DNA of 63,802 bases, the filler included, from Klebsormidium nitens (lineage: Eukaryota > Plantae > Klebsormidiophyceae): NCBI GenBank assembly GCA_000708835.1. It is 8 parts of 8 records of this genome, joined end to end, with 100 filler letters (N's around TTAATTAATTAA, not from the genome) between each part and the next. Parts side by side here need not be neighbours in the genome. Positions count along the whole stretch, not along the records: positions 34,119 to 49,629 come from DF238033.1; positions 49,730 to 55,171 come from DF238422.1; 6 more parts are not named here. One strand, given 5' to 3'. The stretch's first letter is position 1, and each line of letters opens with the position of its first letter. Of this stretch, positions 21,961 to 51,248 are shown in pieces. A model generated the notes under the pieces. It was not told where the DNA came from. It saw only the letters and a list, made by a program, of their open reading frames with translations, and did no database searches. The position numbers were made by a program, and so were the translations under genes.

Positions 21961-21989
21961 CCAGTTGGTTAGAGCGCTTGATTTAAGTG

Positions 21990-23447: not shown

Positions 23448-23816
23448 GGCTCTTAAGTGTCATTTGGTCTAAAGAGCATCCGTGATAAGGCAAATTGCCC
23501 CCATCGATAATTTCAGTAAGAGGAGTGATCCATAGATTGATTTGTGCGGAACTTCCAAGCCACAATCAAGTCTAGTCGGCTCGGTGGACCGACACTATGA
23601 AATCATCAGACGTTGCACCATATACCGTACATTGATGGCTATTTTTTACCAAATTCATTTCAACGGTTAGCATAACATATTACTATTAGGGACTACCATT
23701 GAAACTCTTGCTTCGAAATCATTGTCGAACAACAGTCGACGTTTCGAGCGCCTAAATCCAGTTGAAACATTTTATCATATACCGCACATCAATGGCTGTA
23801 TTTAAACCAACTTCAT

Positions 23817-28058: not shown

Positions 28059-29851
28059 TGACGGTGGCGGTGGAGCACTTTGAAAGCAGCATATTGCTTG
28101 GAATAGCGGTAGAGGCGCTGCACAAGGCAGCATAAGAAGGCGCTGGCACGCTGCATAGGATAGCAAAAACGTGGGCTGTGCAATATATATATAAGTTTGC
28201 GATCGATACGTTTGAGCGGTGATGAAAATGGTGCCAGTGGTCACTTTCGGTCTGGCATTACCGGCAAGATTGCCACAAAGGGCATGTGGTTCGTTCTCAG
28301 TTAAATCTCTGTGGCGAACGGCGCCATGACTTTTAAGAAGTATGAAATATGACGGCGGCCCGGGGGCCGGATGCCTTTGACACGGCCGATGTTTTGAAAC
28401 GGTTTGGCGGCCCGGCAAAGTAAACGCGGTCGACAAAACTTCGTCTTCACTGACTCAATGACCGGACTGGCCGCCAAAAAAATATGGTGTAGCTTATATT
28501 GTTGGTAGTCACTACTAGTACGTGCTCAAGACTGGTAGCCTTAAAGGGCACGCTGAGTGCCCGACAATAACAGAATCAGGGAGCAATATGTTGAAATCAC
28601 ACGCTCATGCTTGGATCCTACGAGGGATTTAACCACCCTCTCACACAAGCGCCTTCACAAAAGAAGCGCCCTAACTCTCACCAAGCATCTCTTAGTATGA
28701 AATGAATTGGGTTCTTTACATGTTGTCCAAGTCTTATAGCCTAGCTCAAGCCTAGCATTAACCCTAGGTGTTTCAATCGACGAATCGACGGTCCGTATTC
28801 GTCGTTGCCTATATAGAACCCATCGAACGGCTACACCGAAGTACACATCACAAAAGAACCCTTTCACTATGAACTCAATCCTAGGGCTCACTTTTCGCGC
28901 ATCTTATGGTGGATATTCAATCATGCAAGCTCACAATGGTACGGCCGACCTTGTGNNNNNNNNNNNNNNNNNNNNNNNNNNNNNNNNNNNNNNNNNNNNT
29001 TAATTAATTAANNNNNNNNNNNNNNNNNNNNNNNNNNNNNNNNNNNNNNNNNNNNCAGAAAAAGAAAAGAACTTGGGAAGAAGGCAAGAGAGCAACAATT
29101 TTTCTGAGAGGCGCTCTTGCTGAAGGTGAACCTAAGTTGGGCTGAAAAGCTGGGCATGGATTCCGCACATGTCTAGCAGACGGGCAGCGTTGAAACCCGT
29201 CCAACCGTCACATCATCATGGTCTATCGCCCCGCTGTGGCTTCCTGCAGGTAAGTGAAGCGGTTTCTGCAATGTCAAGATTGGCCACAACATTTCTGGGC
29301 CCTCTGAAAATAGCTCCTTGACACATCGTGCATGCACAGGTTGCCTGTTCTCTGCTTTTAACACACTTTGCTTTTGACAACTGATGTTTGCGGCCACGTA
29401 CGTCTCGTACGCTTCTAATACGCTTCTGGCTCTCCGTACTGATTGTGATAATCTTCTTGTCTGAATCTCCCAACCATTTGTAAAAACACTTATCATTCAG
29501 ACTGCACCCTTCTCAGTTTCGCTTTAGTAAACCAGCGTATTGCCAAAAGAGACACTACTCTCCCTTGCACTGTTAGAAGATGCAATCTCGTGAAACACTG
29601 TCTGGATTCTTTCCACGCCTTCAACATACTTTCTCATAGACTAGCTTTTATTCTGCAAAGTCTCATAATTCTCGGTAAACAATGCTCGGGTACGACTGCA
29701 ATCTCCTATTCTTTCAAAGCCCCAGCACACCGAGCTCCATGCTGTCAGCTATGCTGCTTGCCAGTCACACGTCATTCGTTCTATGTCCAGTCGTTCCGAC
29801 TACTCTTTTCCCTTTCATTTTAAAAATCAGTCTGCATACTGCAGGTATTCT

Positions 29852-33829: not shown

Positions 33830-34118
33830 TTACAACTTCAGTGAGGATACGTAGGATTACCTTGTCCCTAGCGAAGATGACCCGGAAATGTGTCACGTGC
33901 AGAAACCTGTCTCCTCTATAAAAGATTTCTTCGAACGACACTGCCTTGCTGTAACGGCATGACTGCGCACCGACTTCTGGCTGCGCGCCAAACTCGCGGC
34001 CGCGCATCGTCCGTTATTNNNNNNNNNNNNNNNNNNNNNNNNNNNNNNNNNNNNNNNNNNNNTTAATTAATTAANNNNNNNNNNNNNNNNNNNNNNNNNN
34101 NNNNNNNNNNNNNNNNNN

Positions 34119-37100
34119 GATGGGACTTACGACCTGGGCTCAGAGTCAAACACCTGGAAGTCTCTGCATGCAGTAGATGCAACTCTGAGCGGCCCCCTGA
34201 CCGCTGGAGGGGCCACACTATCGGGTGACCCGGACCTGGGGAGCAACAACATCAGCTGCACGGGCGACCTGGGCCCGCTGGCGAGCCTGACTGCTGAAAG
34301 TGCTGACATGGGAACGCTGCAGGTTGGATACCACTTTACGGTCCAGGATGGGGCCACCGTCTCGCTTGCTGCCCCGCTCAATCCAGGCAGCAACAATCAA
34401 TATGACCTCGGCTCCGTGTCCAACTCGTGGCGCACTGTCTATGCCAGCAACGCAAACCTTGCTGGCTCTTTGACTGCGCGTGGCGCATCTCTGTCAGCAC
34501 CCCTCTCACTGGGGAGCAATGGGGTGACCCTCACCGGCCAGATTGCCAGCTCGAGCAGCAGAGCATCTGCTCTCTACTCGTCCGTTGTAGACGTTAACAC
34601 GTCCCTTGTAAACAGCAAACTGACCTTACAACCTGGCTCTACCACCAACCTCTCAACAGATTTGCAGCCAGGGAGCAACTCGACGTTCAGCCTTGGCAGC
34701 TCAAACAGCGGTTGGAAAACCTTGTACGCAAGCAACGCTGTGCTTAGTGGCGGGCTCACCTGCAAGGGTGTGGATACGCAGGGTTCAAACATCAGTGCAG
34801 GTTCGGGGAGCCTGACAGGGGCTTCTGCCAGTGTGTCCAACCTGACCGTCAATGTGGGCGGTTCGACCTTGTTCTACACATCGCTCACGCCTGGCAGCAC
34901 TGGTGCGTATGATATCGGGTCTTCTTCGGTGCTCTGGCGGAACGTGTATGCGAGCAACCTGACGGTCACTGGAACGCTGAACCTGAGCAGCAATGCCATG
35001 TCTTCAACCCAGGGTTCTCCGAGCAGCGGGATTGCAGTCTATGGAACAACTGTTGATGCAAATTACGTTGTCATCAACAATGACCTGACTGTTGGGTCTA
35101 GCGCAACGACCAGTTTTGCAACCTCGCTCTTGCCGGGAAGCAATGGCGTCTACAATATTGGGCCTGCCGGCAGTACCTGGAATGCAATCTATGGGTCCAA
35201 TGTTACACTCTCAGGACCGTTGACAGCGGCTTCTGGCATAACCTCATCGAACGGTCTCACAGTTGCTGCTGGGTCGGCTTCTTTTGGGAGCAACGTTTCG
35301 TTGACCGGCCCACTGACGGTCGCAGGCGGGCTGACCTCGTCCAACGGGCTGTCAGTTTCGGCAGGGACAGCGAGCTTTGGGAGCAATGTAACGGTCTCGG
35401 GCCCACTGACAACGGCAGGTGGTATCACCTCGTCAAACGGGCTCACAATCACCGCTGGGTCGGCTTCTTTTGGGAGCAATGTGTCGATAACCGGCCCACT
35501 GACGGCCTCAGGTGGGTTGACCTCGTCGAATGGGCTGACAGTTACTGCGGGCACAGCAACCTTTGGAAGCAATATTGCAGTCTCAGGGCCACTGACAGCG
35601 TCAGGTGGTATGACCTCGTCAAACGGTCTGACGGTCTCTGCTGGTACGGCATCCTTTGGGAGCAACCTGTCGGTTACTGGGACAGCAAGCTTTGGGAGTA
35701 ACGTGGGCATATCGGGCCCACTTGTAGCAAGTGGCGGGCTCACCTCGTCAAACGGACTCACAATCACCGCTGGATCCGCTTCTTTTGGGAGCAATGTGTC
35801 GGTCACCGGCCCACTGACGGCCGCAGGTGGATTGGCTTCGTCGAATGGTCTGTCAATTACTGCGGGCACCGCAACCTTTGGAAGCAATATTGCAGTTTCG
35901 GGGCCACTGACAGCGTCAGGTGGAATCACCTCATCAAACGGTCTGACAGTCGCTGCCGGAACAGCAACTTTCGGCAGCAACCTCGTAGCCTCGGGCCCTA
36001 TCACCGGTTCGAATGGCCTGACAATAGTTGGGGGCAGCGTCAGCTTTGCGAGCAATCTCACAGTTGCTGGGGCGATTGTCTCCTCAAACGGTGTAACAGG
36101 GTCTTCCTTCAGCACGACCGGGGCAATCAGTGCAGGAACGGGCAATTTCTCTGGGGACGTGACAGTTTCTGGAAACTTCAATGTTGGGGGCCGCATCGAT
36201 TATGTCAGCACTTCGGAGCTGCTTGTGGCGGACAAGCATATTACGCTCGCATCCTCATCCAATCCAACGGACGCACTTGCAAGCGGGGCGGGCCTCTACA
36301 TACAAGGGTCCAATTATGCAGCTTCCAACAGCACAATATCTTTCACATGGAATACCGGTGCAAACGGGAACTACTGGCTTACAAAGGGAGGGAACGTGGC
36401 GCTCCAGGGGACGAGCGGGTCCAAGATGGTGACCCTCTCAACGGCTTCTGACGGGTCCTTGAAGCTTCTCTCTGATGATGGGACGACCGCTACCAGTACG
36501 GCAGCTCTTGGTGTACCTCTCATACCTGCCAGCTCTGCCCTGGACATTGGCAGCTCGTCTAACCTTTGGGGAACACTGTACGCGTCAAGCATTGGGAGTG
36601 CATCGAAGCTCGTCCCTGTCTTTGCATCTACCGTCAGCTGCAGCAACCTGACAGCAACAGCTGCGATCACCGGAGGAAGCCTCTCTGCTGGCACTGGATC
36701 ACTCACGGCCGGGGCGGCCACACTGGGGGCGCTCTCGTGCACAACCATCTCCACAAACAACTGCAATGTCTCTGTAGGCACCGGTTCTATAACGGCCGGT
36801 GCAGTGACTTTTGGGGCGGTCACGTGCGGCTCGATTGGAACCCAAGGCAATTCGATCAGTGCAGGAGCGGTTTCGTGCACGAGTGTGAACCCTGGGGCTT
36901 CCAACTCGTACGACGTGGGAAGCAGCTCGCTGACATGGCGCAACGCCTACTTTGCGGGCACCGTGAGCGCAGGCACTTACTCTGGCCTCACCCAAAAGTA
37001 TTGGAACAAGTACAACCTGGGGCTCATCAACGAGACCACGGGCTATCACAAGGTTGCAACGTTGCTCCCCTGGATCGGCGCAAACAATTTCGTCCTGAGG

Positions 37101-37391
37101 CTGTCCGGGCAGTTTGGTGGTGAGGCCGCCTTTGCGGTGCTGGACATGTACATCTCGACGCGCCCCACCCCGCTCACGGTGTCGGGGACCGCTTATGGCA
37201 ACTTGGCTGCTGCCAAGGCATACGGGGATGTTGCAATATACTTGGAGTCCTCCTCGAACTACAGTGTTTACCTGTCATCGACCAAGCAGTTTGGTTCTTG
37301 GGACCTGAGTGTGGAGGGCAACTCGGGGAATGTTCTCTTGGAGCCATCTGCCTCAAACACGGCTGCTCCGACGGGCACGCTTCAGATGTAA
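34119..37391 (+). CDS. 5'-truncated Gly/Ser/Thr-rich fibre/spike protein (>1,090 aa)
   Basis: The frame is open from the scaffold edge (63 codons before the ORF-track Met at 34308). It has repeated P.....YD(L/I/V)GS.S..WR..Y motifs, 31-aa tandem repeats and a terminal ~135-aa module shared with the minus-strand fibre gene. Confidence 0.8.
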   Translation, partial: DGTYDLGSESNTWKSLHAVDATLSGPLTAGGATLSGDPDLGSNNISCTGDLGPLASLTAESADMGTLQVGYHFTVQDGATVSLAAPLNPGSNNQYDLGSVSNSWRTVYASNANLAGSLTARGASLSAPLSLGSNGVTLTGQIASSSSRASALYSSVVDVNTSLVNSKLTLQPGSTTNLSTDLQPGSNSTFSLGSSNSGWKTLYASNAVLSGGLTCKGVDTQGSNISAGSGSLTGASASVSNLTVNVGGSTLFYTSLTPGSTGAYDIGSSSVLWRNVYASNLTVTGTLNLSSNAMSSTQGSPSSGIAVYGTTVDANYVVINNDLTVGSSATTSFATSLLPGSNGVYNIGPAGSTWNAIYGSNVTLSGPLTAASGITSSNGLTVAAGSASFGSNVSLTGPLTVAGGLTSSNGLSVSAGTASFGSNVTVSGPLTTAGGITSSNGLTITAGSASFGSNVSITGPLTASGGLTSSNGLTVTAGTATFGSNIAVSGPLTASGGMTSSNGLTVSAGTASFGSNLSVTGTASFGSNVGISGPLVASGGLTSSNGLTITAGSASFGSNVSVTGPLTAAGGLASSNGLSITAGTATFGSNIAVSGPLTASGGITSSNGLTVAAGTATFGSNLVASGPITGSNGLTIVGGSVSFASNLTVAGAIVSSNGVTGSSFSTTGAISAGTGNFSGDVTVSGNFNVGGRIDYVSTSELLVADKHITLASSSNPTDALASGAGLYIQGSNYAASNSTISFTWNTGANGNYWLTKGGNVALQGTSGSKMVTLSTASDGSLKLLSDDGTTATSTAALGVPLIPASSALDIGSSSNLWGTLYASSIGSASKLVPVFASTVSCSNLTATAAITGGSLSAGTGSLTAGAATLGALSCTTISTNNCNVSVGTGSITAGAVTFGAVTCGSIGTQGNSISAGAVSCTSVNPGASNSYDVGSSSLTWRNAYFAGTVSAGTYSGLTQKYWNKYNLGLINETTGYHKVATLLPWIGANNFVLRLSGQFGGEAAFAVLDMYISTRPTPLTVSGTAYGNLAAAKAYGDVAIYLESSSNYSVYLSSTKQFGSWDLSVEGNSGNVLLEPSASNTAAPTGTLQM
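35195..36110 (+). repeat. 93-bp (31-aa) coding tandem repeat, ~8 full and 2 shortened units
   Basis: Consensus (I/L)TSSNGLT(V/I)xAG(S/T)A(S/T)FGSN(V/I)xxxGPLTAxGG; units 3-4 resemble units 6-7. Confidence 0.9.
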
Positions 37392-37394
37392 CGG

Positions 37395-38208
37395 NNNNNN
37401 NNNNNNNNNNNNNNNNNNNNNNNNNNNNNNNNNNNNNNNNNNNNNNNNNNNNNNNNNNNNNNNNNNNNNNNNNNNNNNNNNNNNNNNNNNNNNNNNNNNN
37501 NNNNNNNNNNNNNNNNNNNNNNNNNNNNNNNNNNNNNNNNNNNNNNNNNNNNNNNNNNNNNNNNNNNNNNNNNNNNNNNNNNNNNNNNNNNNNNNNNNNN
37601 NNNNNNNNNNNNNNNNNNNNNNNNNNNNNNNNNNNNNNNNNNNNNNNNNNNNNNNNNNNNNNNNNNNNNNNNNNNNNNNNNNNNNNNNNNNNNNNNNNNN
37701 NNNNNNNNNNNNNNNNNNNNNNNNNNNNNNNNNNNNNNNNNNNNNNNNNNNNNNNNNNNNNNNNNNNNNNNNNNNNNNNNNNNNNNNNNNNNNNNNNNNN
37801 NNNNNNNNNNNNNNNNNNNNNNNNNNNNNNNNNNNNNNNNNNNNNNNNNNNNNNNNNNNNNNNNNNNNNNNNNNNNNNNNNNNNNNNNNNNNNNNNNNNN
37901 NNNNNNNNNNNNNNNNNNNNNNNNNNNNNNNNNNNNNNNNNNNNNNNNNNNNNNNNNNNNNNNNNNNNNNNNNNNNNNNNNNNNNNNNNNNNNNNNNNNN
38001 NNNNNNNNNNNNNNNNNNNNNNNNNNNNNNNNNNNNNNNNNNNNNNNNNNNNNNNNNNNNNNNNNNNNNNNNNNNNNNNNNNNNNNNNNNNNNNNNNNNN
38101 NNNNNNNNNNNNNNNNNNNNNNNNNNNNNNNNNNNNNNNNNNNNNNNNNNNNNNNNNNNNNNNNNNNNNNNNNNNNNNNNNNNNNNNNNNNNNNNNNNNN
38201 NNNNNNNN
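37395..38208. other. Within-scaffold assembly gap (814 N)
   Basis: Run of N without the TTAATTAATTAA spacer. Confidence 0.97.
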
Positions 38209-38360
38209 TAACCCGGCCGCGACGCGCGGACGGCCGAAGCGAAATCGATATATAAATTACGGAAGCGCCTTAGTGTGCATCCAGTCGACAGCTTTTTGGA
38301 TGCATAGCCGAGCGGCTAAGGCGGTCGGCTTCCGTACCGTTACATCAGACCCCTTCGCCA

Positions 38361-38813
38361 TTGAGCCAGCTCAATATCACAACCGAGCTGTCGACCAATG
38401 TCACAACACTGTCAACAGGTATCTCATGCAGCAATCTGACTGCAGCGGGCACGTTTAGCCTTGGACCGCTGACAGGGACCCGTAGTAACGCTGCAGGACC
38501 TTTTGTGGTCTCATCTGGCTTTGATGCGGTGGGGTCGAATCACAGCATCCCACTGCCTCTGGGTGAGAGAAATCAGGCTGGCATATTGACCGTTTTCGCA
38601 AAGAATCTGAACGGTTCTTATGGTGGGTCAAAGGCTGGTTATCTGAGGATATTCTACAGCTCATTAGCGGGTGATGTGAACAATACTTTTGGGGTGATTG
38701 AATCGTATGCACCACGCATGACGACTTTTTCCGCCACTGCCAACGGGCAGGGCTGCACAATATTGACAGATGCAGATTGTGCGGTTGCATACAAGTTCGA
38801 AGGAGCTTGTTAA
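38361..38813 (+). CDS. Small virus-like hypothetical protein (150 aa; no in-frame ATG, TTG start or lost start)
   Basis: The N-terminus (LSTGISCSNLTAAGTFSLGPLT) resembles the fibre repeats and the C-terminus looks beta-rich. No ATG lies between the upstream TAG at 38271 and 38361. Confidence 0.55.
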   Translation: MSQLNITTELSTNVTTLSTGISCSNLTAAGTFSLGPLTGTRSNAAGPFVVSSGFDAVGSNHSIPLPLGERNQAGILTVFAKNLNGSYGGSKAGYLRIFYSSLAGDVNNTFGVIESYAPRMTTFSATANGQGCTILTDADCAVAYKFEGAC

Positions 38814-38821
38814 AACGCAGC

Positions 38822-40915
38822 TTACAACAAAAGCCCAAGGCCGACCTGCATCAGCACTACTACTCTATCAGATGCATGCCTCTTAGTCAATGTACTACAA
38901 ATGTAGTACAAAATGTAGTACAAAATGTAGTACAAACCTTCAAAACACATGTCTCTGCCTGCCGTCACCAGCTTGAAGCCAAAAACCCCCATCTCTTGGG
39001 TCATCTTTAAGCTGGTGAGGGGTGTTACCAGCTCCTTGCAGCACTCCTTTGCATACTTGGAGAACCTATTGAGGAGAACAGCCCGCTTAACAAGGCTTCC
39101 CTCCCTCTTCTGAGTCCTTGCTCCCAGGAACTGACGGAAGACCTCCTGAGGTGTTGGGTAACCCCTCTTTGGCCGGATGCCGGCAAACACCCGACTGTTG
39201 ACTCCACGCCAACGGACGTCAACTTCCCTCACACCCTTCGCTGTCAGCACTTTTGACATCGTGCTGCCATGGCCCCTGTGGAACTTCTGCCATCCTCTTG
39301 CAGCTCCAAACGCCTGAAGTGCTTCAAACAGATCGGCTTTGCTGACGAGAAGGTCGTCGTCACCGAGTTCGCAGTCCTCTTGGATGAACTGGAGGATGAG
39401 GTCCTCGTCAGCATCCGATGACGGCCGGTCCTTCAGACGAATCCCCGAAAAGCCTTCTATTCCATGGCGACCACCAGTGCTGTAGACAGTCGAAGTCACT
39501 CCTTCCAACCGAATCACAGCCGTGTAGAACTTTCTTCTGGTGGTCTTGCCGTACCTCTCAACAAACGCCTCAAACAGTGGGATCCGGTCCGTCCGGAACC
39601 TGTCCACCGTCCTCATCGAGCGCTCGTCAACCCCAAACTCACACAATGAGCGGATATGCTCGTGCACATTCCTCTCGAATTGTGTAGCATCGGGGGTGTT
39701 GTCTACTACCGCCTCCCTCTCTTCCTCGCCCCCGGCTTCAACATTGCTGCCCCTTGGAGGCTCTTCCGGCTCGTCATCATGCGATGCCACCGCTTCTTCC
39801 TCCTCGTCAAGTGCTGCTTCGTCCGTCGTCTGCTCCTTTCTGCTGTCATCATCTTTGGGCCCGGCCCTTGGCGTGACCCCTTTCTGAGCTTTGCCACCGT
39901 GATCTGGTGTGTCGCCGCCCTCATCGTCCTCTTCGCACCGCTTCCTCTTAAAAACCTCCATTCGGTACTCGTGGTCCATCCGGTATTTCTCTAGCTCAAC
40001 GTCTCTCTGTAGTTGAACTTGCAGCTGCATCTGCTGAGTCTTCTCGCGCTCAATCTCCAGATAGTCATGTGAATCTGACATTACAATATCCTGTGATGCC
40101 GACTGCCGGCACGCCTTTCTCATGAGGAAGTACAACCTCTCCTCTGTCATCGTATCGGGCATTAAGGAAGTCTCCCGCTGAATGCTGCCTCCTATCTTCA
40201 GCTGCTGGACATTGTCCTTGATGTCCGGGAAGTTCTTGAAGATCTCCTCAGCCTTCTTTGGGTCGTCTGCCTCGACAACGTGGCGCAGCTCAAAGAAGTA
40301 CGGTGTTGTAAATGTCCTCCGATGCGCACTGTAGCGCTCCTTGATGTTTGTAGTGAAGCCGAACTTGCAAAGACGCGGCTGCTGCTGGATTGCAGCCACG
40401 TAAGTGCAATTTTTCTTCTCGTACGTTAAAATGTATGCTTGTTCTCTGTCAGTGCCTGACTGCAGCATGTGTGTCAACTCGACATAGGCGTCCCTCATTG
40501 CTCGAAAGAACTGCCGCACCTTGTTGCCTGTCTCAGTCATTGCTATCATGGCAAAGAGCTCAAATGCATTGATGGTCATGTAGTATTTGTCAGGTGCGAA
40601 CCCCTCATAAGACCCCTCATCCGTCTGGATGACCCCCCCTTTCGTGCCCCTGTAGTCAAGGCCCTCCCTGAATCCTCCACCCTTGAGCTTGCGAAGGCCA
40701 TTTGCTTTGGTGCTGTAGCCCAAGAAGCGCCATGCATCATCAAAGTCAATGGGGAACTCGTTCCCTTTGTCATCAAATGCCTTGATGAATACTGACGCCA
40801 GCTCCGCGCGACTGTTCAAGTCCACGTCAACCGCGATAACCCTTGGATGCGCAAGAATGGCGGTGGTGAGGTCCATCTTCTTGAAAGGAGCTGTCGAAAC
40901 AAAAGAAGAGCTCAT
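38822..40915 (-). CDS. MSV199/AntA-like N-terminal domain + T5orf172/GIY-YIG-like domain + coiled coil + acidic linker + three winged-helix-like repeats (~697 aa)
   Basis: FPIDFDDAWRFLGYSTKANGLRKL...FREGLDY...YYMTINAFELFAMIAMTETGNKVRQFF; CTYVAAI...LCKFGFTTNIKERYSAHRRTF...FELRHVV; repeats of the form FI.E.C......VSK..LFEAF......GIR.K. Probable start is 40915 or 40876. Confidence 0.75.
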   Translation of the reverse strand: MSSSFVSTAPFKKMDLTTAILAHPRVIAVDVDLNSRAELASVFIKAFDDKGNEFPIDFDDAWRFLGYSTKANGLRKLKGGGFREGLDYRGTKGGVIQTDEGSYEGFAPDKYYMTINAFELFAMIAMTETGNKVRQFFRAMRDAYVELTHMLQSGTDREQAYILTYEKKNCTYVAAIQQQPRLCKFGFTTNIKERYSAHRRTFTTPYFFELRHVVEADDPKKAEEIFKNFPDIKDNVQQLKIGGSIQRETSLMPDTMTEERLYFLMRKACRQSASQDIVMSDSHDYLEIEREKTQQMQLQVQLQRDVELEKYRMDHEYRMEVFKRKRCEEDDEGGDTPDHGGKAQKGVTPRAGPKDDDSRKEQTTDEAALDEEEEAVASHDDEPEEPPRGSNVEAGGEEEREAVVDNTPDATQFERNVHEHIRSLCEFGVDERSMRTVDRFRTDRIPLFEAFVERYGKTTRRKFYTAVIRLEGVTSTVYSTGGRHGIEGFSGIRLKDRPSSDADEDLILQFIQEDCELGDDDLLVSKADLFEALQAFGAARGWQKFHRGHGSTMSKVLTAKGVREVDVRWRGVNSRVFAGIRPKRGYPTPQEVFRQFLGARTQKREGSLVKRAVLLNRFSKYAKECCKELVTPLTSLKMTQEMGVFGFKLVTAGRDMCFEGLYYILYYILYYICSTLTKRHASDRVVVLMQVGLGLLL

Positions 40916-41340
40916 AGACGCACGTCTCGTACCTTTGAGACCCAGCAAATTCAGTGTCCTTGTCAACGGAACAAAGTGGAAGCAAACCGTTCCAATGGAA
41001 CCTTGACAAATTGACCGATGCAACCACATGCATTATCAGTGATTGGAACATCACTGTAACCACCTCAGGATACGTTGGTACACCTCTGAAGCAATATCTG
41101 GTGACATGTCTCCTCACTAGTTCTACGTGACAGGATTCGTCATTGATACTCACCTCTCCAATGTTGTTGTTGGCCCAGATGCTCGCAAGCAGACGTTTGA
41201 AGCTGTCACGTTGCCCACGTTTCACCTCCTAAGTTGTGGCAATATCAGCGATCGGCTGTAGTTTCTTAGAATAGCTCCGCTCGTATGCGGATGGCTCCTA
41301 CGCTCAGTCCTTACTCCAACATAAGAAGCCTATGTTGTCT

Positions 41341-41374
41341 GAGTTGTCTGAGCTGTCTGAGCGTCAGACAACTC
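41341..41374 (-). terminator. Perfect 11-bp stem / 12-nt loop hairpin immediately 3' of the giant fibre gene stop
   Basis: GAGTTGTCTGA (41341-41351) and TCAGACAACTC (41364-41374); the stop codon is 41378-41376. A termination role is inferred. Confidence 0.4.
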
Positions 41375-41375
41375 C

Positions 41376-44300
41376 CTAAGACTGCAAGCCTTCCCTCTGT
41401 TCGCGGATTGTCACCCTGTTCACCAACGAGGCTGCCAAGTCCCTAAGCTCCGCAACCTCTTGCCTCAGTGACCGCAGCTCCTCTTCCTCAGATTGCTCGG
41501 TGACCCGTGCAACTGTCGCCCTAAGCTCCGCATTCTCGCTCCGAAGCTCCTTGACCGCCTCGACCAGGTGCGCTTGGAGGCCATACCCCACATCGATTCC
41601 GAGCATGGGTTCCTGACCGGGCTGCACGTTGCTGTCATTGTCCCACGCAACCACCCACTCTGGAAAGACGTCCTTCACTTCCTGAGCGATGAACCCAGAG
41701 ACGTTGGAGCGTGTTTGCGTCACGTTGGGAGGCGTAAAGTCAAAGGTCTTGCCGGCAAGCCTGCAGACCCTCTCCAAGGCCCTCTGGATTGGCTGCACGT
41801 TGGATTTGAGCCTCGCATCCGAAGTCAGGGCCACGTTGTTTGCATACACGGTCGAGCCAGCATACACATTTCGTGCTGCAGTGACATAAGTGTTGCTGCT
41901 GAAAGTTACGCGAGTTGTAAAGTTTGCAGTACCATACGAGCTGGTGGTCCCGCTAGTCTGTTGGGAGAAAGTGAGCGCATAACCGCCTGTGTTGATTCGC
42001 CATTTTGCATTCACGATGTCTTCGAGGATCAGCCCCGTTGCTGTCGAAGTACTTCCGATGATCATGGTGTTTGTATTTGCGTCCTGGGCGCCAAAGAAAT
42101 GGAACGGGGCAGCCGGTGTGAGCGCAGCCGTGCTGTTTGCTGTAAATCCAGCATTTCCAGAGCAGAAGCGATTTCCCGAGAGGTACTCATGGCGCCATGC
42201 GAGAGCACTTGTGCCCAGGTCGTATGTTGCACTGCTTCCAGGGTTGACTCCTGTACAACCAATAGTGCCGGCGCTAATCGAATTTCCTTGGGTACCGATG
42301 GTGCCACATGTCAGGTTTCCGCAGTTGAGACTGCCCGTATAACGTCTAGTACCCGAAACATCCAGAGTATACGAAGGAGTAGTTGTACATACCCCGAAGT
42401 TTCCGTTTCCACAAGCGTTGAAGGATTGCGACCCGATAGTGTATCCCCAACAGCCAAAGGCATAGTAATTGTTTGAAGAGCCTGTTCCACCCACATAGCT
42501 AAACCCAAGGTATCCAGCATTGTTGGCCGCCGTCGTGTTGACTCTATACGGGCTTATGATGTATTGAGCGCTGGAGAGCCCTGCTGCAAACGTGGATGAA
42601 ACTATTACGCTCGTGTTAGTCGCAGTGCAAGCGATATTCGTGACTCCTGTCGACGCACCTCTAGGACCCGTAAAAGATCCCGTCGTCGCAGAGAGTGCAC
42701 CGCTGAAGGTTCCCGTAGTCCCGGAGACTGCCCCGCTGAAGGTTCCCGTAGTTCCGGACAAAGTGGTACAAGTTAGTGGGCCACAAGAGATAGAGCCTCC
42801 AGTAGCAGTACCCGATGATGCCCAGGTGAGGTTGGCGGCATTTGAAGAGAAAGAGTAGTTGCCAAAGGATGCAGTTGAGGTGCTTGTTTCAAAAACAGAG
42901 CTGAGCACGGAGAGAACAGATGATGTGTTGAGAGTCCCAGTTGCGGTGGCAGTGCTGGAAGTTGGCTCATTGACGGTTGCATTGATACTCGCTGGTTCGA
43001 CGCTGAGATCCCAACAGACGTAAGTCCCGAGATTTTTGAGGTAAATCGAGAACTTGCCGTTCGTCTCGACGTAGGTGACGATGTCTGCATTTGCTTTTGC
43101 GCCACTAAGGTATCCATTTGCTGAGCCCTTGACTCCGTACCCACCTCGCGAAGAGATTGTGCAGTCTACCGTAACACTCTGATTGGTCCCAAAGCCTCCC
43201 ATGGACCCGCAAATCCTCACCGCTCCACCACCAGAGGCCTCGCCGATAGCCGGAAGCACCCCGATCTTGTAAAGAGTTCCGGGCGTAGCACTGTATTGGC
43301 CTTGAGTCGTAGCATTCCAGTACTTTCTGGGGAGACCGGTGTACGTGCTTGCGGACAATGTCGATGCATTCACCGTCCCAGCAAAGTATGCATTCCTCCA
43401 GTAGTTGCCCCCCGAGACTCCCACATCATATGCGTTATGGGTTACGGCAACGAGGTTCGTGACAAAGGTGGTAGGATAGATCTAAGCTGTGAAGAGGTTT
43501 CCGAATTTGTTTGCGTTCGTTCCGATATCGTACGTCCCCGTTCCCGTGGTGGTGATCGCCCCTGATGTAGAAACTGCCCCAGCCGTCAGGGTCGAATCGA
43601 ACGTGACTGCCCCGGATGCATGCAGGCTTCCGGCCACGTCTAGCTTGTAGGATGGGCTGGTGGTTCCCAACCCCACCTGACCTCCATATTGTTTCATGGC
43701 GGTCGAGGGCAGATAGCTGAGCGTCCTCCAGGTGTCATCCACATAGATACTCGACAGAGTCGAAGTCGCAAAGAGTCCATCCTGGGCATAGTAAGCTGTT
43801 ACGTTCACGGTTAATGTAGAAGCTATGGCCCCTGCCATGCTGTGTAGCAGTCGAAGCCTCAGGTCATAGGTAGATCCACCAGGGACACTGTTCGTGCCTG
43901 GCGATGACACGTGCAGCTCGTAGTCGTTGTCCAAGGGGTGCCCGTTGTGAGCGGACAATGGTATGCATCGCCTCCAGGCACCATCTGCCGTCAGCAGACT
44001 ACTCCCCACCGTGATCGAGTACCTTTTTGTGAATTCGGTGCCAGTGGTCTTGGGCGACACTATGGTCACATCGAGAGTGGTGGCTGTTCCTGTCGTAAAG
44101 GATGCGAACTCGTAGGCACAGTCAGCGGTCGTGTCGCAAGCAATGGTGTACGATTTGTAGTAGAATCCGGGCAGAGTAAGCGCTCCAGTGGTGGAAAGGT
44201 TCGTACCGAATGCCCCTACAGAGAACGTTCCCGTAGTGATCTTGGATGCGTCCAAACTCGCAATGGCGGATGCTGCAACGGACCCGGAGGGAAGAGTGAC

Positions 44301-47300
44301 CGTGCCCCCGGAAACTGCAAAGTTGGAACTCGCCCAGAGCGTGCCATTGACGTCCAATGTGTAAGATGGGGAAGCCGTGCAGACGCCAAAGTTGCCGTTG
44401 CCACATGCGTTGAACGAACCGGTCCCGACACCGTACCCCTGCACCCCGAATGCGGCGTAGTTGGACGTAGATCCAGAGCCACCTGTGTTTTTGAAGAGAT
44501 GCCAGGCACAGTTGTACGAGCCCGTTTGCGATACCCCAAAGTAGCTGACTTGGAAGTTTCCAGTTGAGACAGGGGAAAAGTTTGTCATAGTCGTCGTATT
44601 TCCAGTACCGGATGCACTGAGAGTGAACCCCGTGCACGTGACTGCACCCCCGAAGCTGGAGGCGGACCCTTTTGTCTTTCGTACGTTGGAGCCGCACAAC
44701 GTGTAGAAGCTGGAAGAGCTCAGTACGGACGTGAGCGCGGTGTCTGCTGCCATCAGCTGAGTGTTCGTCGCCGCGTATGCGAGCGAGTAAGACGTCGATG
44801 GCTAGATGGAGGATGCAGGAACGTTTCCTTCGAATTGGCAAGTGGTGACGTCCAGGCTCATGGTCAGATAATCCATGTTTTGCTTTGCGTAAACGAACAG
44901 GTTCTTGCTGTTGTCAATGTAGAGTGCAATGTCGAATGTTCCTGACGCAAATGGGTCAGTGCTGTCCGGACTGTCGAGGACGAGTGAAGCATTCCAGCTC
45001 GGATTCTGAGTATGGAATCCGATGTTTGCAGTGAAGTTCACCGGCCCTGAGACATGTCCGAGGAGGCCGGTGATTGTCAGGCAACCGGAGCAATAAGCCC
45101 CGTTGTTCCAGAATGCTGCGATCTTCCACCACATAGGTGTCGAATACAAGGTCTGACCAGTGATGCTGAAGGTCCGCTTGGCCCAGTTATTCGTGCTCTG
45201 GCCAAGGACGCCGGTCGACGCACTCAGCGCGCCGCACGTGGCCGAGCCGCTCCCGGTCGTGATGCTCGTGCAGTCTACCCCGTTGGGATATGCGGTGCCT
45301 CCGACCCGCACGGAGCTAGATCCGATCGTGCCCTTGATGAACAGGTTCCCCGTGTCGCCCGTCAACGACATCAGGCAAGACTCTGACGAATTCTCCCATA
45401 AAAAGCCTTGATTGTTGTTATTACCGACCCTGTTCCTGATATGATGAGCCGTCCTGTTGTCCAACGAGGTGCAAGTCGAGCCACCCGCACTCGACTTCCC
45501 TGCCCCCGACGTACACATGTACGTTGCCCAGTTAGAGTCGTTCGCCTGCCAGTAGCGGATGCCTCTATTGGTACCGGAGTCCGTTTGGTCGTTCACTGCT
45601 AGGATGCCGGGCATGATATTGCAGCTTCCACCGAATGTCGTAACGGTGGAGGCTCTGAAAGTGCCGTTCACATCCAGCAGGTAGGAGGGGGTTGTCGTGC
45701 AGATACCAAAGTTGCCGTTGGCACAAGCATTGAAGGATTGGCTTCCCATCAGATACCCCCGCACTCCAAAAGCATAGTAGTTGGTCGAAGCCCCCGCCCC
45801 ACCGGTGTAATTGAATCCGGTGAACCCACAGTTGTTCGCGGAGCCTGCGACTCCGTACGGGCTTATGATATACTGCCCACTGTTCAAGCTTCCTGCGTAG
45901 GTAGTGGAAACGAACGTGGGACCGGTCCCTCCTGAAACGATGGCACTGCTCGCGCATGTCATCGCCCCGGACACCGTCAATGCGTTTGCCACGGTGACGT
46001 TGCTGTCGAATTGTGCAGTGCCCCCCGACACGTGCAGCATGTTGTTGGGACTCACGGTCCCGACGCCGAGGCGGTTGTTGTAAGGATCGGCAAAGCATGG
46101 GCCTCCCAAAGCCGTTTTCTGCGACTGAGTCTGGTCGTAAGCGAGGTTGGATCCTGGGATGTCCGTGGCCGCGAACGTCGTGCCGGAGGTCTGAGCCCAC
46201 TGGAGCCTGAACTGTTGATTGCCCCCCGTGTTCTGCTGCACGATCGTGATGTTCTTCCACCCGGCGGTGGCAAACGTTATGGTGCTTGAGGATACAGTAC
46301 TGCCATTCAGGTTCAGACCCGCGGACAGAACGAGACTGCCATCAATGTACCACCTGAGACTGTCGTCGACTCCAACCGATGAAAACGTGTAGTTCGCTGC
46401 TGCTGGGATGTTGATGTAACCACTGATGTTGAGATTATAAGTTTGGATCGTGCCGCCGCTGAAGATGTTCGACAGACTTGCATAATTGTGCACGTTAGAC
46501 GTGTCCAGAGGGCCATTGGCACTCGACCATAGGCTCTTGGTTAACGCGAAGGAGCCCAGGGACCTTGCCGTCCCTGTCCCTATGTTTGTCACACTGCAAA
46601 TCAGCCCGCCCGTCGCGGCGGCATTGAAGGCACCAGATGCATTCACCGTCCCAGCCACGTCCAGCTGATACTGAGGGCTCTTGGTCCCGAGACCCACGTA
46701 GTTGCTGGTGTTGTTGATGCAGATGGCAGACGCATTAACACCAGTTTGAAGCAGAAGGTTCCCACCGTTTGCCCGTAGGATTGCGTCGCCCAGCACAGCG
46801 TCTGTGCTATAGGCCGATGCACCTCCTGCCAAGCCAAATTGTGCAGAGTTTGTTGTTGCTCCGCTTAGGAGGCCGAATTGGGTGCTCGAAGCGTTGGAAG
46901 CCGAGACGTTCACGGCGTGCGTTCCGACCAAAAAGGCTCCTGAAGTGATCTGAGATGCAGGGAGATTACCTATAGCAGAGGCAGCCACGGACGCACTGGG
47001 CAGAGATACCGAACCTGCTGAAACCGTCAGGCCGTTGGACCCTGTAATGGCGCCCCCGACAGACAGGTTGCTGGATAGGTAAGCACTCCGCCATGCCGTC
47101 GCAGAGGCGCCCAGGTCGTAAGTCGCATTAGCAGTGGGATTGTGCTGACCGCTCGTTATGGAGCCACTTCCCACGGTGATGTTGCTGTTTTCAGTGCTTA
47201 TGGTTGTGCAAGTCAGTGCCCCCAGAGTGCTAGCCCCTGCTGCCAGGGTTCCCGTAGTGCTGATATTCGTGCCACCAAACGAGCCAACCGAGAACGTACC

Positions 47301-48733
47301 CGAAGTAATCTGAGATGCAGGGAGATTTCCGACAGAAGAGGCCGATATAGATCCACTTGGCAGAGAAACTGTCCCTCCAGAGATTGTCAGGCCGTTGGAT
47401 CCAGTGATAGAGCCACCTACGCTGATATTGCTCGAGAGGTAAGCATTCCTCCACGCGGTACCGGACGCCCCCAGGTCGCATGTTGCCGTGGCTGATGGGT
47501 TGAGCTGCCCGCTGGTGATGCTGCCACTGAGAATGGCACCAGAATTGGATGAACCGATGACAGTCCACGTGGGGTTGCCCGAGACTGCAGAGTCTGAGAA
47601 TGAAAAGTTGTTGAAGGCAGTGGTGACAGTGCCCGAAGAGAATTCTGACTGCATATTTAAGAGGCTCAGGACCGAGGATGTCACGAGGGTGCCGGTTGGA
47701 GCTGTGCTGGCCGTCGAGGTGGGTTCGTAGAGGGTCGTACCGAAGCCCCCCTCGATGCTGAGGTCCCATACCGAGAACTGTGCGGGGTTGTAATAGTAGA
47801 CGCTGTACTGCCCGTTTGTCTCTATGTACACGACAATATCAGCGTGCTGCTTGGCCCCTGAGATGAAGCCTTGGATCGTGCCTCGCACGTAAAAGTTGCC
47901 TCGAGAGACTATGGTGCAGTCGATCGTCGCCGTCTGCGAGTTCCCGAAACCACCGAGCTGTCCAACGATCCGAAGACCCTGTGCGCTGCCAGTGTTGCCG
48001 CTATCGAGCAGAGTTGCCTGTTTGAAGTAGCTGTTGGCCGCTATGGACTGGATTCCGAGCGCCCCTGCGTTCCACACCTTCCGCTGCAGACCGACATAAT
48101 TACTCGCCGTTATCGTTCCCGACAGATATGCGTGATTCCAGAAGCACCCAGGTCATACGTAGCACTCGACGTCGGGTTGAGTTGCCCACTGGTGATCGAC
48201 CCCGTGCCGGCATTGATGTTGCTGTTTCCCGTGCTGATGGTCGTGCAAGTCAGGGCCCCAGCCCCCAGGGTTCCGGTAGTGCTGATATTCGTACTACCGA
48301 ACGAGCCCACCGAAAACGCGCCTGAAGTGATCTGGGATGCGGGTATGTTGCCCACTGAGGAGGCCGTAATGGACCCATTCGGCAATGAAACGGAGCCTGC
48401 TGAGACAGTCAGCCCGTTGGATGCCGTCAAGAGGCCCGTCACTGAGAGGTTTGAGCTGAAGTTTCCGGTACTTGCAAAGACGTTTGACCACTGACTCGAG
48501 GATGTCCCCAGGGAAAACGCGTTGGTTGCATTTGGCGTCACAGAAGTGCCAAAGGAACCCACAGAGAAGACCCCCGAAGTCAGATTTGAGGCAGACAAGT
48601 TGGGGATGTTTGAGGATGCCAGCACGCCGGAGAGGGATGCTGCCGAGACAGACCCAGCTGGCAGACTCACAGTTCCCGAAGGAACGGTCAGCCCATTAGC
48701 CGTCAGGGTATTGGCATAGAGATTGAAGGACAT
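41376..48733 (-). pseudogene. Giant fibre/spike gene (~2,450 codons) with PA14 domain and C-terminal peptidase-S74 intramolecular chaperone, disrupted by one frameshift (~48140) and two in-frame TAGs (44804-44802, 43484-43482)
   Basis: ORFs 44802-48077, 43482-44753 and 41376-43424 are in the same frame, with fibre-like sense codons bridging the stops (16 and 19 codons). The 48110-48733 ORF continues in a shifted frame as WNHAYLSGTITASNYVGLQRKVWN. PA14 motif: ISGYINIP...YTFSSVGVDDSLRWYIDG. S74 motif: TSDARLKSNVQPI...GFIAQEV..VFPEWV...LVEAVKEL plus coiled coil. Confidence 0.85.
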
Positions 48734-48800
48734 CCTCCTTCCTACTAGCAGGCAAGATATAATCACAAGGCACTTAGGAGTGTGTTGAAACAAGACTTCC

Positions 48801-49265
48801 ATGGCGCCCCCCTCGTTTTTGAAGAGCTGTCACGTCGCATGCATCATGGACACCGACCGGGCTCAGGTCTCAAAGTACAAGGTCCAGCTCCCAATCATGT
48901 GGAAGCGCGCTTACAGGGCTCGCTTCAACATGGACCTGCTTGAGGAAGCACGGAAGGTGGCGTTGGATGTGCAAGGAGTTCATCAAGCGGTAGTCGTAGG
49001 CCGTTCACTGCTAGTGTATGTCCGGGCCCCTCACATGGCTGAAGAGCTCATGAACGAGATAAGCGTCGAGAGGGCGCTGCGCGAAGCGGCTGTGACTTGG
49101 GAGCGCGAGGCACACGTGTGCAACAGCCTGCAGTGGGCCATCATCTCAAGGTTCTTGAAGGATGACGAGTTCAAGACTCACGCCTTCATTGCTTATACTT
49201 CCAAGCATGGCTTTGAAGCAGCCATGAGAGCACTGTACAATGTCAGGAACTGGATGCCTCAATGA
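48801..49265 (+). CDS. Intronless hypothetical protein (154 aa), divergent from the giant fibre gene
   Basis: Open frame starting 67 bp from the fibre ATG; no recognisable motif. Confidence 0.5.
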   Translation: MAPPSFLKSCHVACIMDTDRAQVSKYKVQLPIMWKRAYRARFNMDLLEEARKVALDVQGVHQAVVVGRSLLVYVRAPHMAEELMNEISVERALREAAVTWEREAHVCNSLQWAIISRFLKDDEFKTHAFIAYTSKHGFEAAMRALYNVRNWMPQ

Positions 49266-51248
49266 TGCGTCCTGCCTGGTCCGTTTGATTTCTGGCACAC
49301 CATCAGGAACGAGATGGTCAAGATCATCGAACCGCCCTTGCAGAGAGTGCTGCTTGTCTCCACACACGTTGGGCAAACAACTGGATGTGAAAGTTTGCAC
49401 GTGGGCTAACATGCTTGAAAGGTTGAGAAGGTTGACAACGGTAGAAACCAGGTCTGTGTCGAAGTTGAAGGAACTGGAGGAATTTGTACAAAAGGTGAAG
49501 GAACAGGAGATATACAACGTTATGATAATCCTGACGTCTTGAAACTTGCCTGCATGTGTTGTGTTGTGTTGTGAACATCACCCGCAAAGCCTGTCAACCT
49601 CTTGCGTTCAGATGGACCGCTTCATTAGTNNNNNNNNNNNNNNNNNNNNNNNNNNNNNNNNNNNNNNNNNNNNTTAATTAATTAANNNNNNNNNNNNNNN
49701 NNNNNNNNNNNNNNNNNNNNNNNNNNNNNGTCTCTTATCTGAATCAGTCCGACTCAGCACTGCCTAAACCATCACTGAATCTAAGCCGTCGATAAAGTAT
49801 CACTCAGTTATCGAGGTTATACTTCTGGTTATATCTGACCTCTGACTAACCGAGCTGAGTGCAATCTAGCCATCATAGAGTTCAACTTCTAACAATGACT
49901 AGCGAGCGCCAAAGAGACATTCATTGGTGCGTCCCCGAGGCGCGCTTCTGGGAGGTCGGGAAGTTCAATGTATACTATGGAAATGAAGCACGGGTTGACC
50001 CAATTTATTGCGCGGCCGCGATGGTGGTAACAGTACCCACGTGGCGTGAGCGTGAAAAGGAGAGCGAGAAGTGATTACGCTTGCCAGTGGCTGGTTACCT
50101 CACTCTAAAAAGAAGCTGAGTTTGTTGTCGAAGTCGTGAGCGAAAAACTTTATATGCGCACCTAGTGAGCTTTTAAATGAGACTTTACTAAGCTGACTAC
50201 AGGCGTCAGTCTGCAGATTATTGCAGCAGCATATGTATTCAGGTTCTCAATCGTCTTCTTTTGTATCTTTTATTACAGAATGCTGCATATAAGCAAAGCC
50301 CTCGCAGATGGAATTGTAAGAGTAGCATGACCATAATAGCATGATTTGGTCATGATGCTGCACGGCAAAAACAAAGTGAACGCGCGAATGAAATCCTACA
50401 GGAGCATGCGGAGTCGGCCTCTATTTTACCGACGATTTTCACCCCCCGAATCTGTGAAGCTTAATTAACAATGTCTCTATATCAATCAATTTTAATGCAG
50501 ACTTAAGGTGTGAAAATCTCCTCAAATTTTGAGATTCGATCAAATCAAAATTATCTGGCTTTCTTTGTCCTTTTTGCACCACTGTGGCTCATAGGACGCG
50601 CCTCGACTTCGACAGCCTAGCTTCGCAATCGTTAAAAAGGTCCTGGCAGATCGTCGTCGACCTCGCTTCACATAAGGCCTTTGCGGTCGCCGGCGATCGC
50701 AGATAATGTAGATACTTCGTGAGGCTCGCATGCGCCACCTTAATTATCAACTCATTTATGAAGATCTTGGAGGTCACCGCGTACGATCTCGGCAGAACAA
50801 GATATGATCGCCCCCCGTGTTGTGGACAAACGAACCCATACAAATGCAAAGACTTGTCGACGCGGTCGAGTCACTTGCAGTTTATCAAGCACCACCTTGC
50901 GCATGGTGATTCCATATAAGCTAGATGCGTACGTGGTGCACATTGAACGTGATTAACCGTGCATCCATGCGATTGGACCAATGTCTTTTGATGCAGTTCT
51001 ACCGGATCATTATCCTGGTAGGCCCGACCTCGAACATGCTTCTGAGTCTCTACTCATAATCCGGCAACCAACGCAAACCTGATGCAAGATTTGGAGCCCG
51101 GACAGGTTAGACCGTTCGAGCTGTGGCATCTACTTATCGGATGGCATGTCGAAATCTTAATAGATCATCATGTTGTGCTGTTGGTAAGCGCAGTAGTAAC
51201 CGCTTCATCTAGGATAGCAATCCCGTGATCAAGGAAGATTAGCGATTA

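What the first reader, a model, noticed from the sequence alone, without database searches (positions are those of the whole stretch)
34119..49629. A 15.5-kb giant-virus-like structural-gene island in an algal assembly
Seen in sequence: an abrupt switch to intronless, tightly packed ORFs, with two convergent multi-kb fibre genes and an MSV199/AntA-T5orf172-type gene. Established: S74-chaperoned fibres occur in phages, Polinton-like viruses and Nucleocytoviricota; MSV199- and T5orf172-type domains are expanded in large eukaryotic DNA viruses; endogenised giant viruses are known in green algae. Inference: a decaying endogenous viral element, potentially the receptor-binding module of an uncultured streptophyte-algal virus. 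The disablements argue against a co-sequenced live virus.
Basis: partly seen in the sequence, partly recalled or inferred. Interest (0 to 1): 0.8.

Follow-up and report, generated by a model that had tools for sequence, protein, structure and literature searches.

The report
Silenced viral fibre genes in alga
This is a broken, transposon-interrupted cluster of predicted virion-fibre genes that most likely came from a giant DNA virus and now sits, probably silenced, in the genome of the alga Klebsormidium nitens, where such viral remnants are already known.

Summary
The genes are real; the "island" is not. 34119-49629 is one whole 15,511-nt Klebsormidium nitens scaffold, and both "switches" are artificial spacers between unlinked scaffolds. 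It carries two convergent fibre genes, one ending in a Peptidase_S74 chaperone and one in a predicted tailspike-like head. Between them lies a T5orf172 gene whose closest look-alikes are Nucleocytoviricota proteins.

Residence in the host genome is well supported, but indirectly. A high-copy LTR is inserted in one fibre gene with a 5-bp target-site duplication. Read depth is host-like. A bisulfite-like run covers the scaffold but not host genes. Diverged paralogues exist in the same genome. The other fibre gene has one frameshift and two stops.

The scaffold has no capsid, polymerase or ATPase gene, so the virus class is inferred: giant virus about 0.7, Polinton-like or other mid-size virus about 0.2. 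Giant-virus and Polinton-like inserts in this alga are already published. New here are the direct signs of endogenisation and a module-shuffled fibre family with intact environmental relatives. Verdict: new member of a known kind, interest 0.3.

The parts
34119..49629 (.). One whole Klebsormidium nitens scaffold (15,511 nt; NCBI genes KFL_0108400xx); the + fibre gene runs off its left end
34019..34118 (.). Artificial scaffold spacer, not biological
49630..49729 (.). Artificial scaffold spacer, not biological
34119..37386 (+). Fibre gene A, 5' part (1,089 codons, open at the scaffold end); Ser/Gly/Thr-rich shaft with shared modules F and B
35178..36071 (+). 93-nt (31-aa) tandem shaft repeats, 6 registered copies
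37382..37386 (.). Left target-site duplication TCAGA
37387..38344 (+). Host LTR-retrotransposon insertion (TGTAACGG...CCGTTACA; 814 nt of it is an N gap); solo LTR if the gap size is right
38345..38349 (.). Right target-site duplication TCAGA
38346..38813 (+). Fibre gene A, 3' part in the same codon phase; C-terminal beta-sandwich head (about 38466-38810) predicted to resemble phage tailspike C-terminal domains
38822..40876 (-). 684-codon gene: antirepressor/MSV199-like N-terminus, T5orf172 domain (40241-40408), coiled coil, acidic linker, three alpha/beta repeats; predicted DNA-binding or nuclease protein
38889..38936 (.). 12-nt x4 tandem expansion at the 3' end of the T5orf172 gene; the frame runs about 30 codons past the end of the 66%-identical relative P0002
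41376..48733 (-). Fibre gene B (about 2,450 codons), broken by a frameshift near 48140 (about 10 nt missing against an internal repeat) and in-frame TAG at 44802-44804 and 43482-43484
46182..46457 (-). PA14 domain (a carbohydrate-binding fold) inside fibre B
41652..41822 (-). Peptidase_S74 intramolecular chaperone domain near the C-terminus of fibre B
48801..49265 (+). Orphan 154-aa ORF with no family hit; may not be a gene

Best explanation
The region is a fragment of fibre-type genes, interrupted by a host LTR insertion and by stops, that likely comes from a giant DNA virus (Nucleocytoviricota) integrated in the K. nitens nuclear genome and is likely silenced by methylation. Shown: gene anatomy, lesions, the LTR with its target-site duplication, and paralogues. 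Inferred for the donor virus: gene B made a long trimeric fibre. Its C-terminal S74 domain would fold the shaft and then cut itself off, as established for phage S74 chaperones. Gene A made a second fibre capped by a tailspike-like beta-sandwich. PA14 and the head would bind cell-wall glycans for attachment. The T5orf172 gene is a multicopy DNA-binding or GIY-YIG-type accessory gene. Fibre variants arose by shuffling a shared set of modules in front of either C-terminus. Inferred after integration: the host methylated the DNA at CG and CHG, an LTR element inserted, and point lesions accumulated. This copy is dead, and fairly young, since CHG sites are not depleted.
For: In the host genome. (1) An 8-bp inverted-repeat element with a 5-bp duplication splits gene A in phase. 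Its right end has depth 825 in X1 and 8,124 in X6, against 11-15 for unique parts. Three X1 contigs continue from it into other DNA, and in X7 it is followed by TGGTATCAGAG, which I recall as the tRNA-iMet primer site. An X1 contig (depth 12.3, 53 nt on the shorter side) joins 37381 to 38345, the empty site. (2) X1 depth of the long listed pieces is 10.8-15.2 on the scaffold and 12.2-21.2 on host scaffold 1-19900. (3) In X6, 652 of 732 changed places are C>T or G>A, against 178 of 557 in X1. X6 covers 30 of 30 bins of the scaffold and 3 of 30 on the host scaffold. A converted read reaches the 85% cut only if CG and CHG are both protected. CHG marks silent DNA in this alga (PMC5890265 passages). 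(4) 61 of 156 X1 contigs laid are under 95% identical, and an intact 2,475-aa S74 paralogue KFL_008380060 exists. Virus class. The T5orf172 protein's best Atlas clusters score 0.94, 0.93 and 0.93 and are 99-100% viral, commonest Nucleocytoviricota. Its top Foldseek hit is an MSV199-domain protein of Bodo saltans virus, E 1.4e-11. All 3 IMG/VR loci with the head domain are 97-181-kb contigs; one is a giant-virus MAG with a weak RPB9-type hit, another carries RPB2. Module C occurs in a 305-kb IMG/VR contig with a cluster of 5 S74 genes, Erv1/Alr and ankyrin genes. Several Phycodnaviridae-like inserts are reported in this assembly (PMC5294986 passages), and methylated GEVEs in PMC12344493 (section 9). 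Fibre role: S74 and PA14, 12 of 13 PHROG hits in the 'tail' category, head Z 9.0 (rmsd 4.2, 114 aligned) and 8.9 (rmsd 2.9, 98 aligned) to tailspike C-termini, module map.
Against: No capsid, PolB, A32, D5 or VLTF3 gene on the scaffold. No contig links it to host genes or to a core-gene scaffold (no genome held). The free giant-virus relatives are distant (28-31% for the head, 57% over 100 aa for module C). Module C is also in a cyanophage-like contig (51%) and a Pseudomonadota MAG protein (38-54%), and the head's best Atlas clusters are mostly Uroviricota (0.87-0.89). The T5orf172 model is multi-domain (pTM 0.29, TM-scores under 0.2). K. nitens also has 7 Polinton-like capsid hits. X1 may be the assembly's own sample, contig depth is a crude measure, and X6's library type is my inference. 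Only 6 of the 17 X6 sites I scored are unique to X6 (all CHH), from 40 rows shown of about 1,530. No listed read piece spans the two stops or the frameshift, so they are not independently confirmed. There is no CG or CHG depletion.
Confidence: 0.7

Rival explanations
1. It is an endogenous, degraded piece of a Polinton-like or other mid-size (about 40 kb) dsDNA virus of Klebsormidium that carries unusually large fibre genes.
For: 7 PLV-type capsid hits in K. nitens (PMC10120064 Tables S4/S5 rows). A PLV virion carries a phage-like fibre and PLVs encode GIY-YIG genes (bioRxiv 10.1101/2022.07.28.501842 passages). 7 of 19 distinct JGI contigs holding close relatives are 39-44 kb long (41,114 dropped as a duplicate of 41,192).
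Against: About 11.7 kb of fibre genes would be a large share of a 14-40-kb genome. Three relatives sit on 54-116-kb contigs. The T5orf172 protein and the head point to giant-virus records. The length cluster could be a library artefact.
Confidence: 0.2
2. The fibres are virus-derived but were kept by the alga as a domesticated surface or adhesion protein family, of which this copy is a pseudogene.
For: An intact 2,475-aa paralogue exists in K. nitens, and module E is 95% identical to it.
Against: The frames are co-linear with relatives without introns, unlike host genes, which show many spliced joints. The genes stay next to a viral-type T5orf172 gene, and the DNA appears methylated like silent repeats.
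Confidence: 0.04
3. It is a free or episomal virus co-sequenced with the alga.
For: The scaffold has no host gene and no seen junction.
Against: Both fibre genes are broken, a host LTR sits in one, depth is host-like, paralogues are diverged, and X6 suggests host-type methylation.
Confidence: 0.03
4. It is a bacterial prophage or contaminant.
For: S74 fibres and antirepressor-like N-termini occur in phages. Two bacterial MAG loci and one Pseudomonadota protein share module C.
Against: Phage matches to the T5orf172 gene cover only 13-16% of it at 29-37% identity (8 records). Only 2 of 46 pattern matches among prokaryote genomes were confirmed, at 41% and 34%. A eukaryotic LTR insertion does not fit a bacterial replicon.
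Confidence: 0.03

Closest known systems
NCLDV inserts and GEVEs of Klebsormidium nitens (PMC5294986; PMC12344493)
   Same: Same assembly; virus-gene-dense contigs mostly without a host junction; several diverged copies; methylation.
   Different: Those were found through core genes or best hits. This scaffold has only fibre and T5orf172 genes, and I could not link it to them.
Prasinovirus hypervariable region (PMC12906663) and fibre clusters of uncultured giant viruses (L003-L008)
   Same: Clustered, rearranged attachment-type genes with S74 and phage-tail-like domains; convergent S74 genes in L003.
   Different: Those are in free genomes. Here the modules are a Klebsormidium-linked set with only 28-57% identity to them.
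S74-chaperoned phage tail fibres and tailspikes (Pfam PF13884; PDB 6f45, 6e1r, 6c72)
   Same: C-terminal S74 on fibre B; tailspike-like C-terminal beta-sandwich on fibre A.
   Different: Eukaryotic-virus context; no depolymerase domain detected; trimer state untested.
Polinton-like viruses (PgVV Ltf fibre; PLV EVEs of PMC10120064)
   Same: Integrate in algal genomes, carry a fibre and GIY-YIG genes, and are present in K. nitens.
   Different: No PLV capsid, ATPase, integrase or terminal repeat on this scaffold, and about 11.7 kb of fibre genes.
MSV199/Bro-N/T5orf172 multicopy genes of large DNA viruses
   Same: Variable N-terminal DNA-binding-type domain plus T5orf172; one relative (P0007) has Bro-N instead.
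   Different: The Pfam MSV199 model does not hit, and there are three extra C-terminal alpha/beta repeats.

Membership tests
Giant endogenous viral element (Nucleocytoviricota) | NCLDV core genes (MCP, PolB, A32, D5, VLTF3) in the element | tested here: inconclusive
   None on this 15.5-kb fragment, but it is cut off. Core genes are reported on other contigs of the assembly; linkage unknown.
Giant endogenous viral element (Nucleocytoviricota) | Genes whose nearest characterised relatives are NCLDV genes | tested here: met
   T5orf172 gene, head domain, module C. Modules are also shared with phages.
Giant endogenous viral element (Nucleocytoviricota) | Physical junction with host chromosome | tested here: inconclusive
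   Edges are artificial spacers and no laid contig spans the stretch. Indirect support: host LTR with target-site duplication.
Giant endogenous viral element (Nucleocytoviricota) | Erosion: transposon invasion, stops, frameshifts, duplicated copies | tested here: met
Giant endogenous viral element (Nucleocytoviricota) | Repressive cytosine methylation | tested here: met
   Indirect: run X6 (library type inferred) covers 30 of 30 scaffold bins and 3 of 30 host bins, with 89% C>T/G>A changes.
Polinton-like virus | PLV-type MCP, penton, A32 ATPase, pPolB or helicase, integrase | tested here: inconclusive
   None on the fragment; these libraries detect PLV capsids poorly.
Polinton-like virus | 14-40-kb unit with terminal inverted repeats | tested here: inconclusive
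   No terminal repeats at the scaffold ends, but the left end cuts a gene. 7 of 19 relative contigs are 39-44 kb.
S74-chaperoned fibre | Peptidase_S74 domain at the C-terminus, above the curated cut-off | tested here: met
   50 bits against 22; 4 of 5 longer relatives also have it.
S74-chaperoned fibre | Ser-Asp-x-Arg-x-Lys cleavage motif | tested here: met
   SDARLK in the translation; motif recalled, cleavage not tested.
S74-chaperoned fibre | Homotrimeric shaft, virion location, receptor binding | not testable with these tools
   The complex predictor was unavailable; binding needs an experiment.
MSV199 domain protein | Pfam PF10553 match | tested here: not met
   No hit at E<=0.1. It resembles such proteins but I do not file it there.
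T5orf172 (GIY-YIG-like) domain protein | Pfam PF10544 above the curated cut-off | tested here: met
   21.9 bits against 20; two relatives score 18.4 and 19.3.
LTR retrotransposon (insertion) | TG...CA ends with short inverted repeats, 4-6-bp target-site duplication, primer-binding site after the LTR, high copy | tested here: met
   primer-site motif recalled; interior hidden by the N gap.

The most novel reading that the evidence does not exclude
The block belongs to an undescribed class of about 40-kb dsDNA viruses of Klebsormidium-like algae, neither a classical giant virus nor a typical PLV. About a third of the genome goes to module-shuffled fibres with two alternative tips (S74-chaperoned or tailspike-like). 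The virus still circulates with intact genes and integrates repeatedly in the closest algal relatives of land plants.
Probability: 0.12. Interest if true: 0.65.

Novelty: new member of a known kind. Interest (0 to 1): 0.3.

Why it matters
Klebsormidium viruses are known, in the papers I saw, only from genomic traces. The 2017 paper argued for integration mainly from copy diversity. This scaffold adds direct sequence signs of nuclear residence: an LTR with a target-site duplication and an empty-site paralogue. It also gives candidate attachment domains (PA14, tailspike-like head) that could be tested on streptophyte cell-wall glycans, and markers for finding the free virus. It does not change the general picture of viral endogenisation in algae.

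Tried and rejected
- Island inside host DNA: rejected, the edges are spacers. The other scaffolds in the window showed only host and retrotransposon families among 72 ORFs.
- Expression: no RNA holder listed. RNA-like run X7 covers 2 of 30 scaffold bins (the LTR end) and 30 of 30 host bins.
- TAG recoding: both internal TAGs face the same residue in most well-aligned relatives. But the gene's own end is TAG and X5 similarity stops right behind it, so recoding is unlikely.
- Methylation-driven decay signature: none; CAG and CTG are not depleted.
- Context of close relatives: scans for the T5orf172 gene found nothing in viral or metagenome contigs. Fibre scans gave no locus. The T5orf172 gene was not scanned against prokaryote genomes (could not run; one search used a fibre module).
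- S74 tree (16 rows): the window, KFL_008380060 and three environmental fibres group at 84/97, unstarred. The outside is unresolved, so no donor can be named.
- Trimer prediction: unavailable.
- Module D row was mis-framed and is ignored.
- Supplements: searches for this scaffold found nothing. The DF accession numbers I searched were guesses from numbering, and Figure S5 of PMC5294986 is not held as text, so it may bear on whether the scaffold was listed.
- Literature searches listed no paper on these fibre genes by title or abstract start; subscription papers are not covered.
- Earlier scan findings: none.
Full report
What the window is. The window is a string of separate scaffolds joined by a 100-nt spacer (N44-TTAATTAATTAA-N44), which occurs 7 times. 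The finding's coordinates lie exactly between two spacers. Homologue searches returned the scaffold's own gene models, KFL_010840020 and KFL_010840030 of Klebsormidium nitens, on a 15,511-nt record. The 'abrupt switch' is therefore a concatenation artefact. Other scaffolds in the window carry host genes (Cluap1, vacuolar sorting receptor) and retrotransposon pieces. GC is 0.54-0.57 here and 0.47-0.54 elsewhere. No whole genome was available.

Gene anatomy. Four gene stretches fill 13,044 of 14,553 non-LTR bases. Fibre B runs on the minus strand from 48733 to 41376. From 48134 down it is one frame with only two internal TAGs, and about 10 nt are missing near 48140 relative to an internal repeat. 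Relatives read through the frameshift and both stops. It holds PA14 and a C-terminal Peptidase_S74, and 12 of its 13 PHROG hits are in the tail category. Fibre A runs on the plus strand from the scaffold edge to 38813 and has 93-nt shaft repeats. Between them, a 684-codon minus-strand gene has a T5orf172 domain. The NCBI models appear to splice around the lesions: P0009 covers only 44% of the query in its best segment, and P0001 takes its last 27 residues from the opposite strand of fibre A.

The LTR insertion. The internal 814-N gap lies inside an element with ends TGTAACGG and CCGTTACA, flanked by TCAGA on both sides. Fibre A continues in the same codon phase after it. The element's right end has depth 825 in run X1 and 8,124 in X6, and three X1 contigs leave it into other DNA. 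In the RNA-like run X7 it is followed by TGGTATCAGAG, the tRNA-iMet primer site as I recall it. One X1 contig joins 37381 to 38345 without the element (53 nt on the shorter side). X5 shows the same join weakly (29 nt, depth 4.55). This is a host LTR retroelement inserted in a viral gene, with the empty site preserved in a paralogue.

Depth, paralogues and methylation. Long X1 pieces have depth 10.8-15.2 on the scaffold and 12.2-21.2 on host scaffold 1-19900. This is a crude measure and X1 may be the assembly's own sample, but there is no viral excess. 61 of 156 X1 contigs laid are under 95% identical. An intact 2,475-aa S74 paralogue (KFL_008380060) and another piece (KFL_010860050) exist in the same alga. 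In X6, 652 of 732 changed places are C>T or G>A, so I infer a bisulfite library. At the same 85% cut it covers 30 of 30 bins here and 3 of 30 on the host scaffold. Expected identity is 73% if all C convert, 79% if CG is kept, and 85% if CG and CHG are kept. Eight long pieces show 20-83 differences over 231-736 nt, that is 6-14%. Of 17 listed sites, 12 are CHH, 5 CG and none CHG; CHG is 23% of cytosines. But 11 of the 17 are shared with X1 or X5 and the list is a small selected subset. Published work says CHG marks silent elements in this alga (PMC5890265, passages). CHG sites are not depleted, which suggests a young insertion. X5, labelled as a different organism in another study, holds a related copy over 23 of 30 bins, most often at 90-95% identity.

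Which virus. The N-terminal 260 residues of the T5orf172 protein match Atlas clusters at 0.94, 0.93 and 0.93, 99-100% viral and commonest Nucleocytoviricota. Foldseek ranks an MSV199-domain protein of Bodo saltans virus first, followed mostly by other large eukaryotic DNA viruses, though TM-scores are low. Pfam MSV199 does not hit. Phage matches are short antirepressor-like pieces. The head of fibre A has 18 relatives among 1.84 billion representatives. Its 3 IMG/VR loci are 97-181-kb contigs, one a giant-virus MAG and one with RPB2. Module C of fibre B occurs in a 305-kb IMG/VR contig with five S74 genes in both orientations beside Erv1/Alr, a UvrD-like helicase and ankyrin genes. It also occurs in a cyanophage-like contig and weakly in 2 prokaryote MAG loci. 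No core gene is on the scaffold.

The Polinton-like rival. K. nitens has 7 PLV-type capsid hits (PMC10120064, supplement rows), and a PLV is reported to carry a virion fibre (10.1101/2022.07.28.501842, passages). Relatives of all three genes (P0002, 66%; P0035; P0040, 73% in the head region) report the same longest contig, 41,192 nt. I read this as a conserved block with long reading frames, but I never saw that contig. 7 of 19 distinct JGI contigs are 39-44 kb. That could mean a 40-kb virus or a library artefact. Three others are 54-116 kb.

How the fibres likely worked. The same modules recur in different order and number across 19 relatives and end in either S74 or the head. The head folds with pLDDT 76 and matches C-terminal domains of Acinetobacter phage tailspikes at Z 9.0 and 8.9 (Foldseek agrees). 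These Z values are only just above the level the tool calls commonplace, but 7 of the top 7 rows are tailspike, tail-fibre, baseplate or tailspike-like proteins. S74 domains are established as self-cleaving folding chaperones of trimeric phage fibres (own knowledge; weak PDB hit to a long tail fibre). In prasinoviruses, S74 and tail-like genes cluster in a hypervariable region whose length tracks host range (PMC12906663, passages). Attachment to wall glycans is therefore the likely role.

Prior knowledge and verdict. PMC5294986 (passages) reports several diverged Phycodnaviridae-like inserts in this assembly. PMC12344493 (section 9) reports methylated GEVEs in K. nitens, and PMC11244446 (one passage) repeats this. 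I found no mention of this scaffold or fibre family (searches; supplements 45, 46, 114), but key figures were not readable. Host-resident and virus-derived: about 0.9. Giant-virus origin: 0.7. Polinton-like or mid-size virus: 0.2. It is a new member of a known kind; interest 0.3.

Noticed in passing
window 37387-38344: A high-copy, apparently transcribed LTR family (run X7); its end is not found elsewhere in the window.
   Followed up: partly
window 43482-43484 and 44802-44804: Both premature stops are TAG and face the same aromatic residue in most well-aligned relatives; coincidence or read-through not excluded.
   Followed up: partly
window 20001-28955: Scaffold with decayed LTR-retrotransposon pieces (gag, zinc knuckle, SH3, chromodomain) and depleted CAG/CTG (0.75, 0.84), unlike the viral scaffold.
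   Followed up: no
window 1-19900: Ordinary intron-rich host genes: Cluap1 and a vacuolar sorting receptor with EGF repeats, spliced in X7.
   Followed up: no
L003-L005 (305-kb IMG/VR contig): About 40 kb of clustered S74 fibre genes of 755-3,554 aa with up to 9 LamG domains, beside Erv1/Alr and ankyrin genes.
   Followed up: partly
L008 1-3462: Giant-virus-type RPB2 with an intein-like Hint match.
   Followed up: no
P0010-P0014, P0017, P0031: Many environmental relatives also end abruptly or in unrelated sequence, suggesting other degraded endogenous copies or assembly errors.
   Followed up: partly
window 48801-49629: Orphan 154-aa ORF and downstream DNA with many indels in X5 and paralogues in X1; probably not under coding constraint.
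   Followed up: partly
window 63603-63790: 90-nt x2 Pro/Glu/Gln-rich tandem repeat at the window's end.
   Followed up: no
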